From contig NC_057726.1 of the NCBI RefSeq assembly GCF_004010195.1, positions 53,180,722 to 53,244,721 on the forward strand: a stretch of 64,000 nucleotides of DNA, given 5' to 3'. The notes beneath the pieces are model-generated. The model saw nothing but the letters and a program-made list of their open reading frames with translations. It had not been told where the DNA came from and ran no database searches. The position numbers and the translations under genes are program-made. Source of the DNA: Chiloscyllium plagiosum (lineage: Eukaryota). Of the stretch, positions 1-13,940 are shown in pieces (the first letter of the stretch is position 1; each line of letters starts with the position of its first letter).

Positions 1-537
1 TTTAGAATATTGTGTGCAATTCTGGTCTCCCTCCCATAGGAAGGATATTGTGAAACTTGAAAGGGTTCAAAAAAGATTTATAAGGTTGTTGCCAGGGTTG
101 GAGGGTTTGAGCTCTATGGAGAGACTGAATAGGCTGGAGCTGTTTTCCCTGGAGTATCGGGGGCTGGGGGATGACCTAATAGGGGTTTGCGGGGTTGTGG
201 GGGGGCATGGGTGGGGTGGGTGGACAGGGTCTTTCCCGGGGGTCGGGGAGTCCAGAACTGGAGGGCATGGGTTTGGGGTGAGAGGGGAACGATATAGGGG
301 AGACCTGGGGGGCAACTTTTTTGCGCGGAGGTGGTGCGTGTGTGGGATAAGCTGCCAGGGGAGGTGGTGGAAGCTGGTGCAATTGCAGCATTTAAAAGGC
401 ATTTGGATGGATATATGAATAGGAAGGGTTTGGAGGGATATGGGCCAGGTGCCTGGCAGGAGGAACTGGATTGGGTTGGGATATCTGGTCTGGACCGAAG
501 GGCCTGTTTCCATGCTGTACATCTCTATCACTCTATG
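1..537 (+). mobile_element. CR1-clade LINE (HER1-like) 3' end, with A>G hypermutated tract
   Basis: RT C-terminus QFWSPSHRKDIVKLERVQKRF. 3' tail ggaccgaagggcctgtttccatgctgtacatctctat is shared with the copies at 8775, 9495 and 11114. Confidence 0.9.
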
Positions 538-539
538 AA

Positions 540-1300
540 CTGCTGGAGGTGATGGTGTGGGAGAGGTGAAGGCGCAGGCCACCTCTGAAATGACCTGAGT
601 TGAAGCTACTGGGATCCTGTCTGTTTTTCCTTCTCCCTCTGAGTGTATACTGGCACCAATCAGTCTCCTTAAAAAGAACGAATACCAAGGGAGTGAAGTG
701 GATTTGTCTCAACCCCCTTCACTTACCATTAATGCTGAGCACCCTTGGCTAGAGCAATGAAGTGTGGGTCTGAGCACATATCTGGCAAGCACCTGGGTCT
801 CCAAGGTAGCTGCCACTCTTTCCATGGAGGTAGCCAAGCATATGTATGCCAGAGTCACTACACCAGTGGGACTGAGGACAGACTCCTCCATCTCATATTC
901 CAACCTACAGATAGGCACTCAGATGTGAGATTGGGAGGATGGCATCGGTGTGAGTCCTCAAGCTACATTGTGCCTTAACATTTGGAGGATATGAGGCTTT
1001 GTGAGATGCCTGTGTAGTGGCAGTGGTACATTGAGTGATGACCCTGTAAGTGTGATGTAGCAGAGAAAAGATGGTTCCACTTACCCTTGCAGAGCACAGG
1101 AGATTATTGACAATTCTCCTGCACTGCTTTCTAGTCCTTTGCAGGCGACTAGTGGCATTGTGGTTTCAATCCAGTTTGATGGGTCTGATGTGATGGCCTC
1201 CTGGCACAGTCACCCAGGAAGAGGATCTCTCCTCTGTCTGTGGCCCTGGCAGAGACTGCAACTTACCTGATATCTATCTGCAAGCTGCAGCCTTTTCTCA
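540..1300 (-). mobile_element. PIF/Harbinger-like DNA transposon remnant (Myb/SANT-like ORF)
   Basis: The minus strand at 1080-1240 gives DRGEILFLGDCARRPSHQT...QRTRKQCRRIVNNLLCSAR|gtaagt, resembling Harbinger Myb/SANT proteins. Boundaries are approximate. Confidence 0.5.
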
Positions 1301-7030: not shown

Positions 7031-8774
7031 GATGGAGGTGAGGGAGGAGGTGTGGGCGCAGTTTTGCAATTCCTGCGGTGGCAGGGGAAGGTGCCAGGAT
7101 GGGAGGGTGGGTTGTTGGGGGGTGTGGACCTGACCAGGTAGTCACAGAGGGAACGGTCTTTGCGGAAAGTGGAAAGGCATGGGGAGGGAAATATATCTCT
7201 GGTGGTGGGGTCCGTTTGGAGGTGGCGGAAATGTCGGCGGATGATGCGGTTTATGCGAAGGTTGGTAGGGTGGAAGGTGAGGACCAGGAGGGTTCTCTCC
7301 TTGTTACAGTTGGAGGGTTTGGGTTTGAGGGTGGAGGTGCAGGATGTGGTTGAGATGTGTTGGAGGGCATCTTCGACCATGTGGGAAGGGAAATTGCGGT
7401 CTTTAAAGAAGGAGGCCATCTGGTGTGTTCTGTGGTGGAGCTGGTACTCCTGGGAGCAGATACGGTAGAGGCGGAGGAATTGGGAATGCGGGATGGCATT
7501 TTTGCAGGAGGTAGGGTGGGAAGAGGCGCAATCCAGGTAGCTTTGGGAGTCGGTGGGTTTGTAAAAAATGTTAGTGTCAAGTTGGTCGTCAGTAATGGAG
7601 ATGGAGAGGTCAAGGAAGGGGAAGGAGGTGTCAGAGATGGTCCAGGTGAATGTAAGGTCGGGGTGGAATGGATGGAATTACATGGTGACAAAGTGAAAAA
7701 ATGACCTTTTGTGATCTTCTGTCTGTGCCTTGTTGCTTGGTTTCTGGCTGCCTTCTTCTTCCAACTGGTCATCCAGCAGAAGTTCAAAGCATTTGGTGAC
7801 AGTATATGATGAATGATATACATCCATCCAAAATGACAGATAGCACACTGCAGAGTGAAGCTACAGGGCCATGTCGTGATTATTGTGTAAGGACCACATC
7901 CTGTTGAGTTTTACATCTGCTAAAGCATTACCTTAATGTATAAAGGTAATGTACTGTGGTGCATTCTTGTATATTTTTATCCAAACAGGTTTCCTATTCA
8001 TCAAAGGAAAAAAGAGGAATGCTGTAATATTGCACAGATGTTAGAAGGTCACTGTATTAAGGAAGCTAAAGATATCAGATAACAGTATAAAAGGTTACTC
8101 TCTAAATTACTCTCTAATAGTTGGTTAGTCAATGAGTCAATCTGCATTAGTCAAACTATCAGTCAGTCAGTTATGTATGTAATGTAATAATAATATAAGT
8201 AAGTATAGAACCTAAACCATATATCAGCCTGAGATTTCATTTTAGTGTAGTTAGTTGTCAATAAACTTCCAGATGTCTGTCTCAATAAAAAAAAAGATTC
8301 TCTGTGGTTCACGTTATATAGGCTAACATAGAGAAAACTACAACACATCACCTCTTGATTTTGATGTGTCTTGGGAAATTTTCTGAATCTTCGATAGTGA
8401 AAACAGTCACAAAATATTTGTTCAACACTTATATCATTTCCTTATTTTCCATTATTAATTCCCTAGACTCATTCTCCAGAAGACTGACACCAGCTTCAGT
8501 TATTATCTCTTTTGAATACTTGTTGAAACTCTTACCATTTGTTTTTACATTCCAGCTAGCTTTCTCTCATAGTCAACTTACTCATTCTTTCTTTTAACTG
8601 GTCTTTAAAATGGACTAAGATTTGCAGAATTGTATAGTGCATCTTTCAATTTGATACTCTCCGTAACTTCCTTATTTAACCACCTTTGATGTGGTTCTCA
8701 AAGAGTCTTTCTGAGTCACTGGGATAAATCTTTGCTGAGAGTTAGTAAATATCTCCTGAGAAATTTGCTCGGAC

Positions 8775-8930
8775 ATGGAGCCATTGAGATGTACAGTACG
8801 GAAACAGACCTTTTGGTCTAACTTGTCCATGCCGACCAGATATCCTAACCTAATCTAGTCCCATTTGCCAGCACTTGGCCCATACCCCTCTAAACCCTTC
8901 CTATTCATATACCCATCCAGATGCCTTTTA
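8775..8930 (-). mobile_element. HER1/CR1 LINE 3' tail fragment
   Basis: Reverse complement of the tail at 395-537. Confidence 0.85.
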
Positions 8931-9480: not shown

Positions 9481-9494
9481 TATTCCATTAATTA

Positions 9495-9837
9495 GAGTGA
9501 TAGAGTCACAGAGATGTACAGCACGGAAACAGACCCTTCAGTCCAACTCGTCCATGTCGACCAGATATCCCAACCCAAATCTAGTCCCACCTGCCAGCAT
9601 CCACCCCATGTCTCACCAACTCCTTCCTAATCACATACCCATCAAAATGCCTGTTAAATGTTGCAATTGTACTAGCCTCCACCACTTCCTCTGGCAGTCA
9701 TTTCACGCACGTACCACCCTCTGCGTGAAAAGGTTGTCCCTTAGGTCTCTTTTATATCTTTCCCAACTCACCCTAAACCTATCCCATCTAGTTCCGGTCT
9801 CCCCCACCCCAGAGCAAAGACTTTGTCTATTTATCCT
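9495..9837 (-). mobile_element. HER1/CR1 LINE 3' end
   Basis: Tail agagtgatagagtcacagag followed by the reverse complement of the ORF2 C-terminus. Confidence 0.9.
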
Positions 9838-10447
9838 TGGTGGGCAAGTTGTTGGAGGGAATCCTAAAGGACAGGACGTACATGTATTTGGAAAGGCAAG
9901 GACTAATTAGGGATAGTCAACATGGCTTTGTGTGTGAGAAATCATGTCTCACAAACTTGATTGAGTTTTTAGAAGAAGTAACAAAGAGGATTGATGAGGG
10001 CAGAGTGGTGGAGGTGACCTATATGGACTTCAGTTAGGCATTCAACAAGGTTCCCCATGGGAGACTGATTAGCAAGGTTGGATCTCATGGAATACAGGGA
10101 GAACTAGCCATTTGGATACAGAACTGGCTCAAAGGTAGAAGATAGAGCTGGTGGTGGAGGAATGTTTTTCAGACTGGAGGCCTGTGACCAGTGGAGTGCC
10201 ACATGGATTGATGCTGGGTCCACTACTTTTCGTCATTTATATAAATGATTTGGATGTCAACATAAGAACATAGTTAGTAAGTTAGCAGATGACACCAAAA
10301 TTGGAGGTATAGTGGGCAGCATAGAAGGTTACCTCAGATTACAACAGGATCTTAATCAGATGGGCCAATGAGCTGAAGAGTGGCAAATGGAGTTTACTTT
10401 AGATAACCGCGAGGTGCTGCATTTTGGGAAAACAAATCTTAGCAGGA
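9838..10447 (+). mobile_element. CR1 LINE RT core fragment, inverted relative to the adjacent 3' end
   Basis: VGKLLEGILKDR...DSQHGFV..KSCLTNLIEF...YMDFS, then LADDTKIGG and EVLHFGK. Confidence 0.9.
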
Positions 10448-11113: not shown

Positions 11114-11797
11114 ATTGAGTCATAGAGATGTACAGCACAGAAACAGACCCTTTGGTCCAACTCGTCCATGTCGACAAGATATTCCAACCGAATCTAATCC
11201 CACCTGCCTGCACCTGGCCCATATCCCTCCAAACCCTTCCTATTCATATACCCATTCAAATGCCTTTTAAATGTTGCAATTGTACTAGCCTCCACCACTT
11301 CCTCTGGCAGCTCATTCCATACACATACCACCAACTGCATGAAAAAGTTGCCCCGTAGGTCTCTTTTATATCTTTCCCCTCTCACCCTAAACCCATGCCC
11401 TCTAGATCTGGACTCCCCCACCCTAGGGAAAATACTGTCTATTTATCCTATCCATACACCTCAAGATTTTGTAAACCTCTATACAGTCACCCCTCAGCCT
11501 CCAACACTCCAGGGAAAACAGCCCCAGCCTAATCAACCTATTCTCCCTATAGCTCAAATCCTCCAACCCTGGCAACATCCTTGTCAATCTTTTCTGAATC
11601 CTTTCAAGTTTCACAACATCTTTCCGTTAGGAAAGTGACCAGAATTGCACGCAATATTCCAACAGTGGCCTAACCAATGTCCTGTACAGCCGCAACATGA
11701 CCTCCCAACTCTTGTACTCAGTATTCTGACCAATAAAGGAAAGCAGACCAAATGCCTTCTTCACTATCCTATCTACCTGCTACTCCACTTTCAAGGA
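11114..11797 (-). mobile_element. HER1/CR1 LINE 3' portion
   Basis: KLERIQKRLTRMLPGLE...LFSLE..RLRGD and GESRSRGHGFRVRGERYKRDLRGNFF; used as the unedited comparator for 1-537. Confidence 0.9.
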
Positions 11798-12081: not shown

Positions 12082-12466
12082 TTATAAAAACACTTTAACT
12101 TAATGAAAAGGCTCTCAAGATATTTCACAGCAAAGCGAAATTAGACAGCCAACTTAATTCAATATTAGGACAGATTTGTTAGATGTAGAAACAAATACAA
12201 AGATTGCTGAAAATCTCAGCATGTCTGGCAGCATCTGTGGAGAGAAACAGAGCTTATGTTTCGGGTTCAGTGACCCTTCTTCAGAGAAAAGCGTCACCAG
12301 ACCTGAAGCATTAACTCTGTTTTCTTTCCACGAATGCTGCCAGATCTGCTGAATTTTTCCATTTCCAGCATTCACAGTTTTTTTTGTTAGGTGTAAGTTT
12401 TATTGAGTGACATAAATTGAGTGGAGTGGCTTAGAGAGGAAATTCCATGCTTAGGGAACAGGTGTG
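12082..12466. repeat. Left arm of ~385-bp inverted duplication (partner 13557-13940)
   Basis: Direct reverse-complement match with few substitutions. The ORF track shows near-identical peptides at 12154-12375(-) and 13647-13868(+). Confidence 0.95.
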
Positions 12467-12809
12467 CCCTAATTAAATTGAAAAGGCCAGAGCCATCTAT
12501 GCTCCAGGGAAAACAGACCCATTCAACCTCTCCCTATAGCTCAAATTCCTCCAACGCTAGCAACATCCTTGCACATCTTTTCTTAAATCTTACAAGTTTC
12601 CCAACATCCTTCTGATAGGACACCAGCATTGCCTGCAAGATTTCAAAAGCAATGTCCTGTATGGCCTCAACAGATCTCCCAACTCCTGCACTCAATACTC
12701 TCACCGATAAAAGAAAGCAAACCAAATACCTTCATCACTATCCTATTTACCTGTGACTATACTTTCAAGGAGCTATGAACCTGCACTCCAAGGCCTCTGT
12801 TCAGCAGTA

Positions 12810-12980
12810 CAAGAGATTGATTGTGTTAGGGGACTCTAGTCCGAGGAACAGTCAGACGTTTCAGTGGCCAGCAGATGTTTCAGTGGCCAGCAGCGAAAAA
12901 GCAGAATGGTGTGTTGTTTCTGTGGTGCCAGGACCAAGGATGTCTCAGAGAGGGTGCAGAATGTGCTGAAGGGGGAGAGG
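12810..12980 (+). repeat. Inner inverted copy of a CR1 ORF1 segment (partner 13259-13413)
   Basis: Both copies encode the same unusual variant FSGQQRKSRMVCCFCGAR. This copy also has a small tandem duplication of tttcagtggccagcag. Confidence 0.9.
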
Positions 12981-13550
12981 AGCATACTTGTACAGGTAAT
13001 TTCTACCCCAAAAGAGATTCCAATTATCCAAAAATGTGAATCCTTCTCCCATACACCAGTTCCTCAGCCACATATTCAACTGCTCTGTCCTCCTATTCCT
13101 GCCCTCACTAGATCGTAGCACTGGGAGTAATCCAGATATTACTACTCTCAAGGACCTCCTTTTTAAATTCCTGCCTGAATCTGTAATCTCCCTTCAGAAT
13201 CTCAACCTTTTCCCTTCCTGTCATTGGTTCTAATGTGTACAATGACCTCCTGTAGGCCCCTCTTCCCCCTTCAGCACATTCTGCAGCCTCTCTGAGACAT
13301 CCTTGGCCCTGGCACCACAGAAACAGCACACCATTCTGCTTTTTCGCTGCTGGCCACTGAAACGTCTGTCTGTACCTCGGACTAGAGAATCCACTAACAC
13401 AATTGATCTCTTGGAACCCAACGTACCCCTCGTTACATTACAGCCAGTCTCAATACCAGAAACTTGGCTGTTAGAGATACATTCCCCTGTGAATCGATCA
13501 CCCCATACATTTTCCGAAATAGCATACTTCTTTGAAATGGGGTTAGTCAC
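12981..13550 (-). mobile_element. CR1 ORF1 (SGNH esterase-like) fragment
   Basis: IVLVDSLVRGTDRRF...VCC..GARAKDV, VVISGLLPV and LNMWLRNWCMGEGFTFLDNW. Confidence 0.85.
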
Positions 13551-13556
13551 AGAATT

Positions 13557-13940
13557 CACACCTGTTCCCTAAGCATGGAATTTCCTCTCTAAGCCACTCC
13601 ACTCAATTTATGTCACTCATTAAACTTACACCTAACAAAAAAAACTGTGAATGCTGGAAATGGAAAAACTCAGCAGATCTGGCAGCATTCGTGGAAAGAA
13701 AACAGAGTTAATGCTTCAGGTCTGGTGACGCTTTTCTCTGAAGAAGGGTCACTGAACCTGAAACATAAGCTCTGTTTCTCTCCACAAACACTGCCAGACA
13801 TGCTGAGATTTTCAGCAATCTTTGTATTTGTTTCTACATCTAACAAATCTGTCCTAATATTGAATTAAGTTGGCTGTCTAATTTCGCTTTGCTGTGAAAT
13901 ATCTTGAGAGCCTTTTCACTAAGTTAAAGTGTTTTTGTAA
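13557..13940. repeat. Right arm of inverted duplication, abutting the promoter
   Basis: Reverse complement of 12082-12466; contains an old fold-back PLE mini-element (CTGAAGA-AGGGTC-ACTG-AACCT-GAAA near 13738-13763). Confidence 0.95.

What the first reader, a model, noticed from the sequence alone, without database searches (positions are those of the whole stretch)
161..388. A-to-G hyper-mutated LINE copy: possible ADAR hyper-editing fixed into the genome by retrotransposition
Seen: I aligned this CR1 copy by eye to the same-family copy at 11221-11520 (reverse complement). It has about 30 A>G differences on the LINE sense strand within ~230 bp and only a handful of G>A. Examples are agaggtttacaaaat > aggggtttgcggggt, gataggataaataga > ggtggggtgggtgga, tataaaag > tatagggg and gcaaca > gcagca. 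The tract is sharply bounded: A-rich sequence is normal before 160 and after 390. C and T are largely retained, and many surviving As follow a G. Known: ADAR hyper-edits long dsRNA in clusters, disfavours a 5' G, and inosine is read as G by reverse transcriptase. APOBEC editing would give G>A instead. Inference: the LINE RNA was paired over ~230 nt, hyper-edited, then integrated. That would record an RNA-editing defence against (or mutagenesis of) shark LINEs in DNA.
Basis: partly seen in the sequence, partly recalled or inferred. Interest (0 to 1): 0.85.

Follow-up and report, generated by a model that had tools for sequence, protein, structure and literature searches.

The report
RNA-edited LINE copies written into genome
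In a 230-base stretch of a jumping-gene copy half of the A's have become G, as in at least 14 other copies in this animal genome, likely because the RNA-editing enzyme ADAR rewrote the element's double-stranded RNA before it was copied back into heritable DNA.

Summary
Confirmed and extended. In window 161-388, 32 of 65 family-A sites read G (3 G>A, 0 T>C); 3 of 69 outside; background 2%. One public DNA run holds the tract at single-copy depth (it may be the assembly's own sample). No G-rich subfamily was found. I found 14 more clearly edited copies, each with its own G set. Pooled 5' neighbour rates are T .64, A .58, C .27, G .20 (p=8e-19; the focal copy alone p=0.064), as ADAR prefers. Exact genome-wide motifs: 5 edited copies against 32,482 unedited on the sense strand, 0 against 32,916 for the T>C control. 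One copy (C11) keeps both arms of a duplex, both A>G on the same RNA strand. Its sense-arm edits (2/154, 41/118, 0/33) track the complementary range, and an unedited source locus exists (C20). Best reading (0.88): ADAR-edited RNA was retrotransposed in the germline, about 1 copy in 2,000. Defence is not shown. The same route is reported in cultured human cells (3/235 insertions); my nine paper searches found no report of such LINE copies in a genome assembly. The scan's earlier notes held nothing on it.

The parts
2..538 (+). 3' end of a CR1-type LINE copy (ORF2 C-terminus, short 3' UTR, tail); 5' end runs into N before base 1
   Evidence: 82-83% to dozens of genome copies; backbone 941-1488; family codes RVT_1; the CR1 label rests on recalled ORF2 motif and tail type
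161..388 (+). A>G hyper-mutated tract, 32 of 65 A sites, on the LINE sense strand
   Evidence: bases 134-379 present in run X1 contigs with 1 difference
2..471 (+). broken ORF2 C-terminal coding remnant; the tract adds many missense changes, and small indels near 199, 231, 329 and 452 shift the frame
   Evidence: three-frame translation beside an unedited copy; indel list
523..538 (+). 8-nt tandem tail ending the element (intact 3' end, unedited)
   Evidence: read directly; same tail in the edited copies listed
539..1200 (.). unique 3' flank; joined to the LINE tip in runs of two species labels
   Evidence: contigs 512-1200 (X1), 512-1170 (X5), 517-1186 (X9, X13; 14 and 18 differences)

Best explanation
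This LINE copy carries a strand-specific A>G tract that was likely made by ADAR on a double-stranded RNA and then likely written into germline DNA by the LINE's own reverse transcriptase. Steps: (1, inferred here, shown at C11) the sense LINE RNA paired over a few hundred bases with an antisense LINE fragment. (2, inferred from spectrum and neighbour bias) ADAR deaminated about half of the As inside the duplex. (3, established chemistry) inosine was copied as G when the RNA was reverse transcribed from its intact 3' tail. (4, inferred) copying usually stopped before the antisense arm, so most edited copies keep only the sense arm, which gives the strand asymmetry. (5, shown) the copy then aged like its siblings. 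The event is rare, roughly 1 copy in 1,300-2,600 (estimate), and is best read as incidental mutagenesis.
For: Spectrum: 32 A>G, 0 T>C. 14 more clear copies on 13 other contigs and this one, with different G sets (6-18 of the focal 29 sites shared). 5' neighbour T 110/172, A 107/184, C 34/128, G 55/278 over 10 tracts, p=8e-19; unedited copies show no such order (T .026, A .018, C .013, G .018). The bias holds outside the query region (p=2e-11) and in motif-found copies (p=1e-5); it matches the U/A over C/G preference in PMC3113232. Strand: 5 edited per 32,482 against 0 per 32,916; T>C-rich query 0 of 29, A>G queries 7 of 29 and 2 of 29. C11 chimera: antisense arm 33 A>G of 79 As against its unedited source at C20, spacer 4 of 71, unpaired 5' part 8 of 201; sense arm 2/154, 41/118, 0/33 before, inside and after the complementary range; 259 of 294 arm bases pair with the sense arm in the predicted fold. 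Other changes per copy 2-6%, median 4.1%, against 3.3% in 125 unedited copies. Deaminase-domain genes on six contigs.
Against: No partner arm is visible for the focal copy or for 13 of the other 14; for the focal copy the 5' side is N. The focal 5'-G bias alone is p=0.064. The 3'-G preference is weak (0.44 against 0.35-0.41, p=0.11). The C19 copy has a low 5'-A rate (T 10/18, A 2/16, C 4/11, G 9/32). Present-day C20 has no sense copy within about 15 kb downstream of the junction, so the edited duplex needs a lost allele or pairing between two RNAs. No clear target-site duplication was found for C11. Only 1 of 4 laid runs showed the tract. Human L1 RNA was not edited in one cell assay (PMC5224506). 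The matched motif contrast is 5 against 0 (one-sided p=0.03).
Confidence: 0.88

Rival explanations
1. In-place rewriting: the locus's own hairpin transcript was edited and its cDNA converted the resident copy, with no new insertion.
For: The C19 copy has two inverted copies just upstream whose range (983-1391, 987-1469) roughly brackets its edits (1049-1407). No target-site duplication was established for C11.
Against: Those C19 arms are unedited (2 and 5 T>C), as is the inverted neighbour of the C21 copy. Inverted neighbours within about 1.5 kb: 2 of 16 edited against 5 of 101 unedited loci. The focal copy's inverted neighbours 8-11 kb away are unedited and their ends do not match the tract. 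C11 homology to C20 stops at the LINE junction, as for a chimeric insert.
Confidence: 0.05
2. Polymerase error burst: dG put opposite T during second-strand synthesis under a skewed nucleotide pool, with no deaminase.
For: It would give sense-strand A>G in bounded tracts at insertion time (reasoning; biased-pool hypermutagenesis is recalled, not from a call).
Against: It does not predict that edits stop where complementarity stops in both C11 arms, nor the T>A>C>G 5' order.
Confidence: 0.03
3. Sequencing, gap-filling or RNA-read artefact.
For: The focal copy and the C34 copy both abut runs of N. X5 and X13 list no contig with G at 307/308. X1 may be the source sample.
Against: X1's separately assembled contigs match 134-379 with 1 difference at flank depth. 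Gap-adjacent: 2 of 16 edited against 17 of 101 unedited loci. An edited read of another locus would have a ~94% identical parent; the best of 40 hits is 83%. Edited copies carry normal ageing changes.
Confidence: 0.02
4. A G-rich subfamily, ectopic conversion from one, or GC-biased gene conversion.
For: Subfamily structure does create apparent clusters: 12 older copies share G>A positions. Edited copies share hot sites.
Against: No near-identical copy; each copy has private G sets and shares at most two other changes with the focal copy. Biased conversion would also give T>C, A>C and T>G; the tract has 0, 1 and 1.
Confidence: 0.02

Closest known systems
ADAR-edited processed-pseudogene insertions made by L1 in cultured human cells (PMC11702581, preprint; passages read; its Fig. 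S8 not seen)
   Same: Edited RNA written into DNA by a LINE reverse transcriptase; clusters confined to inverted repeats (3 of 235 insertions).
   Different: There: induced, somatic, passenger mRNAs with inverted Alus. Here: old genomic copies of the LINE itself, at least 15 loci, in a non-mammalian genome, with an unedited source locus for one.
APOBEC DNA editing of LTR retrotransposons (PMC4866542, passages; PMC2873906, passages)
   Same: Hyper-mutated retroelement copies created at insertion and kept in vertebrate genomes; found by comparing copies of one family.
   Different: G>A on the sense strand, cDNA deaminated, LTR elements only screened. Here A>G, RNA deaminated, a non-LTR element, bounded by duplex extent.
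A-to-G hypermutation of retroviral genomes (title of Kim et al. 1996 seen in a reference list; paper not held; avian proviral cases recalled)
   Same: A>G clusters that pass through reverse transcription into DNA.
   Different: Infectious retroviruses in culture or tumours, not inherited LINE copies.
ADAR1 restriction of human LINE-1 (PMC5224506, passages)
   Same: ADAR meets LINE RNA particles.
   Different: That restriction is editing-independent and no editing was seen in 2.5 kb of L1 RNA; here editing left a record. A 2016 review says ADAR's role in Alu subfamily evolution was undetermined (PMC4982230, passage).

Membership tests
ADAR A-to-I hyper-editing signature | dense cluster of one change, A>G, on one strand | tested here: met
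   32/65 A>G, 0/49 T>C; same in 14 more copies
ADAR A-to-I hyper-editing signature | 5' neighbour U/A preferred, C/G disfavoured | tested here: met
   pooled p=8e-19, 2e-11 outside query, 1e-5 in motif-found copies; focal alone p=0.064; C19 copy low at 5'A
ADAR A-to-I hyper-editing signature | 3' G preferred | tested here: inconclusive
   123/280 against 183/482, p=0.11; p=0.10
ADAR A-to-I hyper-editing signature | edits confined to double-stranded range, both arms edited | tested here: met
   C11 only. Not testable for the focal copy (no partner visible; N upstream)
ADAR A-to-I hyper-editing signature | host encodes the deaminase | tested here: met
   PF02137 exons on six contigs; not sorted into ADAR, ADAD or ADAT
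ADAR A-to-I hyper-editing signature | inosine or matching edited transcripts in germline RNA | not testable with these tools
APOBEC DNA editing of retroelements | G>A clusters on the sense strand | tested here: not met
   3 G>A of 79 in the tract; G>A-rich copies elsewhere are older and share positions
LINE insertion by target-primed reverse transcription | intact 3' tail at a unique flank | tested here: met
LINE insertion by target-primed reverse transcription | target-site duplication or empty site | tested here: inconclusive
   focal 5' end is in N; none clear at C11; a 44-nt 89% direct repeat flanks the C9 copy but lies in another repeat
CR1-clade LINE | ORF2 reverse transcriptase and short tandem 3' tail | tested here: met
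   RVT_1 E 1e-21; 8-nt tail
CR1-clade LINE | placement in the CR1 clade by RT phylogeny or library match | not tested
   label rests on the recalled ORF2 C-terminal motif seen; no repeat library at hand
G-rich LINE subfamily | multiple near-identical copies sharing the G set | tested here: not met

The most novel reading that the evidence does not exclude
ADAR hyper-editing is an inherited mutational route for vertebrate LINEs, leaving dozens of datable DNA records of ancient germline duplex RNAs per genome. The C11 insert would record two separate RNAs, a LINE transcript and an antisense host transcript from C20, paired and edited together and then fused when the reverse transcriptase jumped from one to the other; the C18 insert, whose duplicated segment has two different edit patterns, would be a jump between two separately edited LINE RNAs.
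Probability: 0.35. Interest if true: 0.88.

Novelty: new variant of a known kind. Interest (0 to 1): 0.76.

Why it matters
It shows RNA edits becoming heritable DNA changes, at about 30 substitutions in one event. APOBEC scars in LTR elements are catalogued, but the A>G counterpart in inherited LINE copies was not found in my searches, and a review calls ADAR's role in retroelement evolution undetermined. The recipe used here (sense A>G against T>C motifs, 5' neighbour bias, chimera with source locus) can be run on any genome to date germline ADAR activity and to read its neighbour preference in extinct ancestors. Such copies also inflate repeat age estimates. The effect is rare and no function is shown.

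Tried and rejected
Search for a near-identical G-rich relative or an unedited parent of the focal copy: none in the best 40 hits. Search for an inverted partner near the focal copy: none in 8.8 kb of readable upstream sequence; downstream inverted copies are unedited. Self-folding of an unedited copy's last 550 nt: no better than shuffles (-152 against -148 +/- 5, longest helix 13), so the tract is not an intrinsic hairpin. No RNA holder listed. X5 and X13 list no contig with the edited bases at 307/308, and X9's 239-321 piece has 6 differences and 2 gaps; the tool says a hole proves nothing, so the state of the tract in the other sample and the second species is open. Dropped rows: of 6 hits of the first sense motif, L152 is a chance non-LINE match; of 7 hits of the second, one is the focal copy, L169 is clear, L170 probable (9 A>G, 0 T>C), L166 doubtful (6), L167 and L171 older copies, L165 unaligned. 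Both hits of the first T>C control are old diverged elements; no denominator was run for it or for the second sense motif. The pooled neighbour table (p=0.72) mixed in two old unedited L169 neighbours and was replaced by the single-copy count. Tract limits were set by a 60-nt gap rule, which cut C11, C31 and C21 short. Loci were fetched for 30 of 40 hits. Pfam found nothing in three short ORF pieces of the 11 kb copy. The 30-nt inverted match beside the C3 copy is only another LINE tail.

Full report
Observation. Window 2-538 is the 3' end of a very abundant LINE (more than 32,000 copies keep one 21-nt word intact). The family codes a reverse transcriptase (RVT_1, E 1e-21). I call it CR1-type from the recalled ORF2 C-terminal motif and the 8-nt tail; this was not tested by a tree. 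Against 32 copies, 161-388 has 32 A>G of 65 A sites, 3 G>A, 0 T>C, 1 C>T and 3 transversions; outside, 3 of 69 As are G. Background is 40 of 2,007. The tract lies in the end of ORF2.

Is it real DNA? The copy starts right after a run of N, which made a gap-edge artefact the first worry. Run X1's own contigs cover 134-265 with 1 difference and 259-379 with none, at depth 7.1 and 7.0, beside 6.5 for the unique flank. X1 may be the assembly's sample, so this excludes assembler error better than it shows fixation. The other three laid runs hold the flank joined to the LINE tip, including two of a second species label, but gave no clear tract contig. Edited copies are not enriched at gaps: 2 of 16 against 17 of 101. 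An edited RNA read of some other locus would leave a parent about 94% identical; the best of 40 hits is 83%.

It is a class. Searching with the copy and the tract gave 7 other hyper-mutated copies among 29 loci (one also). A second region gave 2 of 29. Exact motifs with three A>G changes gave four more, plus C11 again, then one more clear and one probable. That is 15 clear copies with the focal one. Each has its own G set and shares at most two other changes with the focal copy, so this is not a subfamily. Their other changes (median 4.1%) are like those of 125 unedited copies (3.3%): they are old insertions. From 5 per 32,482 and a 20-40% chance that an edited copy has that triple, I estimate 1 copy in 1,300-2,600.

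Signature. Over 10 tracts the share of As edited by 5' neighbour is T 0.64, A 0.58, C 0.27, G 0.20 (p=8e-19), while 138 unedited copies show .026.018.013.018. Because copies were found by likeness to the query, I recounted outside the query region (T .47, A .51, C .21, G .14; p=2e-11) and in motif-found copies (p=1e-5). Human ADAR1 and ADAR2 prefer 5' U and A over C and G (PMC3113232, abstract and sections 7, 8 read). Against: the focal copy alone gives p=0.064, the 3' G preference is not significant, and the C19 copy is low at 5' A.

Strand. A natural T>C-rich query found no other T>C-rich copy in 29 loci. Among 168 young alignments the densest 150 nt held at most 5 T>C, apart from the C11 arm. 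A T>C triple in a context ADAR would favour on the antisense strand had 0 matches against 32,916 unedited; the other control's 2 matches were old elements. The matched contrast is 5 against 0 (p=0.03), 7 against 0 over both pairs. G>A-rich copies exist but are older and share positions.

The telling locus. At C11 an antisense LINE fragment lies 238 nt upstream of a sense copy. The fragment has 31 T>C against the family, which is A>G on the same RNA strand. A search with the spacer found one full-length second locus, at C20. C20 has the same fragment and spacer with the As intact: 33 of 79 arm As are G at C11, against 4 of 71 in the spacer and 8 of 201 in the unpaired 5' part. C20's antisense pieces cover backbone 798-1089, 1142-1266 and, past another insert, 1252-1354. 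The C11 sense arm is edited from 803 to 1236: 2 of 154 As before 798, 41 of 118 in 798-1266, 0 of 33 after. The C11 stretch still folds arm to arm (259 of 294 bases). Homology to C20 ends at the LINE junction and C20 has no sense copy within about 15 kb downstream. So C11 is a chimeric insert made from edited duplex RNA. Either a lost C20 allele carried the LINE and gave a hairpin, or two RNAs paired and the enzyme switched template; my data do not separate these. C11 also lacks about 660 nt of C20, including part of the arm that its sense edits require, so that loss came during or after copying.

Mechanism. Shown: spectrum, class, neighbour bias, strand asymmetry, duplex-bounded edits and an unedited source at C11, normal ageing, deaminase-domain genes on six contigs. 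Established: inosine is copied as G. Inferred: that ADAR was the enzyme, that the focal RNA had a partner over 161-388, and that 5' truncation removed the partner in most copies. An unedited copy does not self-fold, so the partner came from elsewhere. Deamination of the cDNA strand in the RNA:DNA hybrid would give T>C and is not seen. Inverted neighbours of the C19, C21 and focal copies are unedited, which argues against rewriting in place, though C19's geometry keeps it open.

What is known. A 2024 preprint reports 3 of 235 L1-made pseudogene insertions in cultured cells with ADAR-type clusters in inverted Alus (PMC11702581, passages; its supplement was not seen and may say more). APOBEC G>A editing of LTR elements is catalogued across vertebrates (PMC4866542, PMC2873906, passages). 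Human L1 RNA was unedited in one assay (PMC5224506, passages). A review left ADAR's role in subfamily evolution open (PMC4982230, passage). PMC13648404 (passages) and PMC4189041 (one reference) added nothing further. Nine searches (listings and abstract starts) showed no report of A>G hyper-edited LINE copies in a genome assembly; subscription journals are largely not covered. The scan's own notes had no such finding (8 of 18 shown in the latter).

Verdict. Real, ADAR-like, and a rare recurrent route by which RNA edits enter the genome. It works like the cell-culture pseudogene cases and mirrors APOBEC scars, but differs in enzyme, element and heritability: a new variant of a known kind. Defence is not shown. 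Interest 0.76.

Noticed in passing
window 9492-10447: A same-family copy with an inversion: backbone 1494-1151 on the minus strand joined directly to 136-735 on the plus strand, like a 5'-inverted insertion; unedited.
   Followed up: partly
L151 1256-1820 (G000:C18): Edited copy with backbone 1201-1287 duplicated; the two repeats carry different A>G sets (2 against 8 sites, 1 shared), as if two separately edited templates or a pre-existing duplication were copied.
   Followed up: partly
L169 1-1841 (G000:C19): Edited copy (31 A>G) with two older, unedited inverted copies directly upstream; best place to test in-place conversion.
   Followed up: partly
L097 4685-5445 (G000:C9): Copy edited along nearly its whole 780 nt (64 A>G), flanked by a 44-nt 89% direct repeat inside another repeat.
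   Followed up: partly
L099 5706-5875; L101 3884-4047; L100 2039-2201: An abundant ~165-nt palindromic element; in L099 it interrupts the edited LINE copy with a ~15-nt duplication of backbone 376-390.
   Followed up: no
window 12154-13118 and 13230-13868: Near-identical translated stretches about 1.4 kb and 0.4 kb apart suggest a local duplication.
   Followed up: no
L085, L108, L121, L040, window 8774-8930: An older subfamily with shared G>A positions (backbone 1323, 1370, 1386, 1396, 1397, 1410, 1415) that mimics G>A clusters.
   Followed up: yes
G000 contigs C5, C7, C17, C32, C41, C51: Six multi-exon loci with the adenosine-deaminase editase domain PF02137; not assigned to genes.
   Followed up: no
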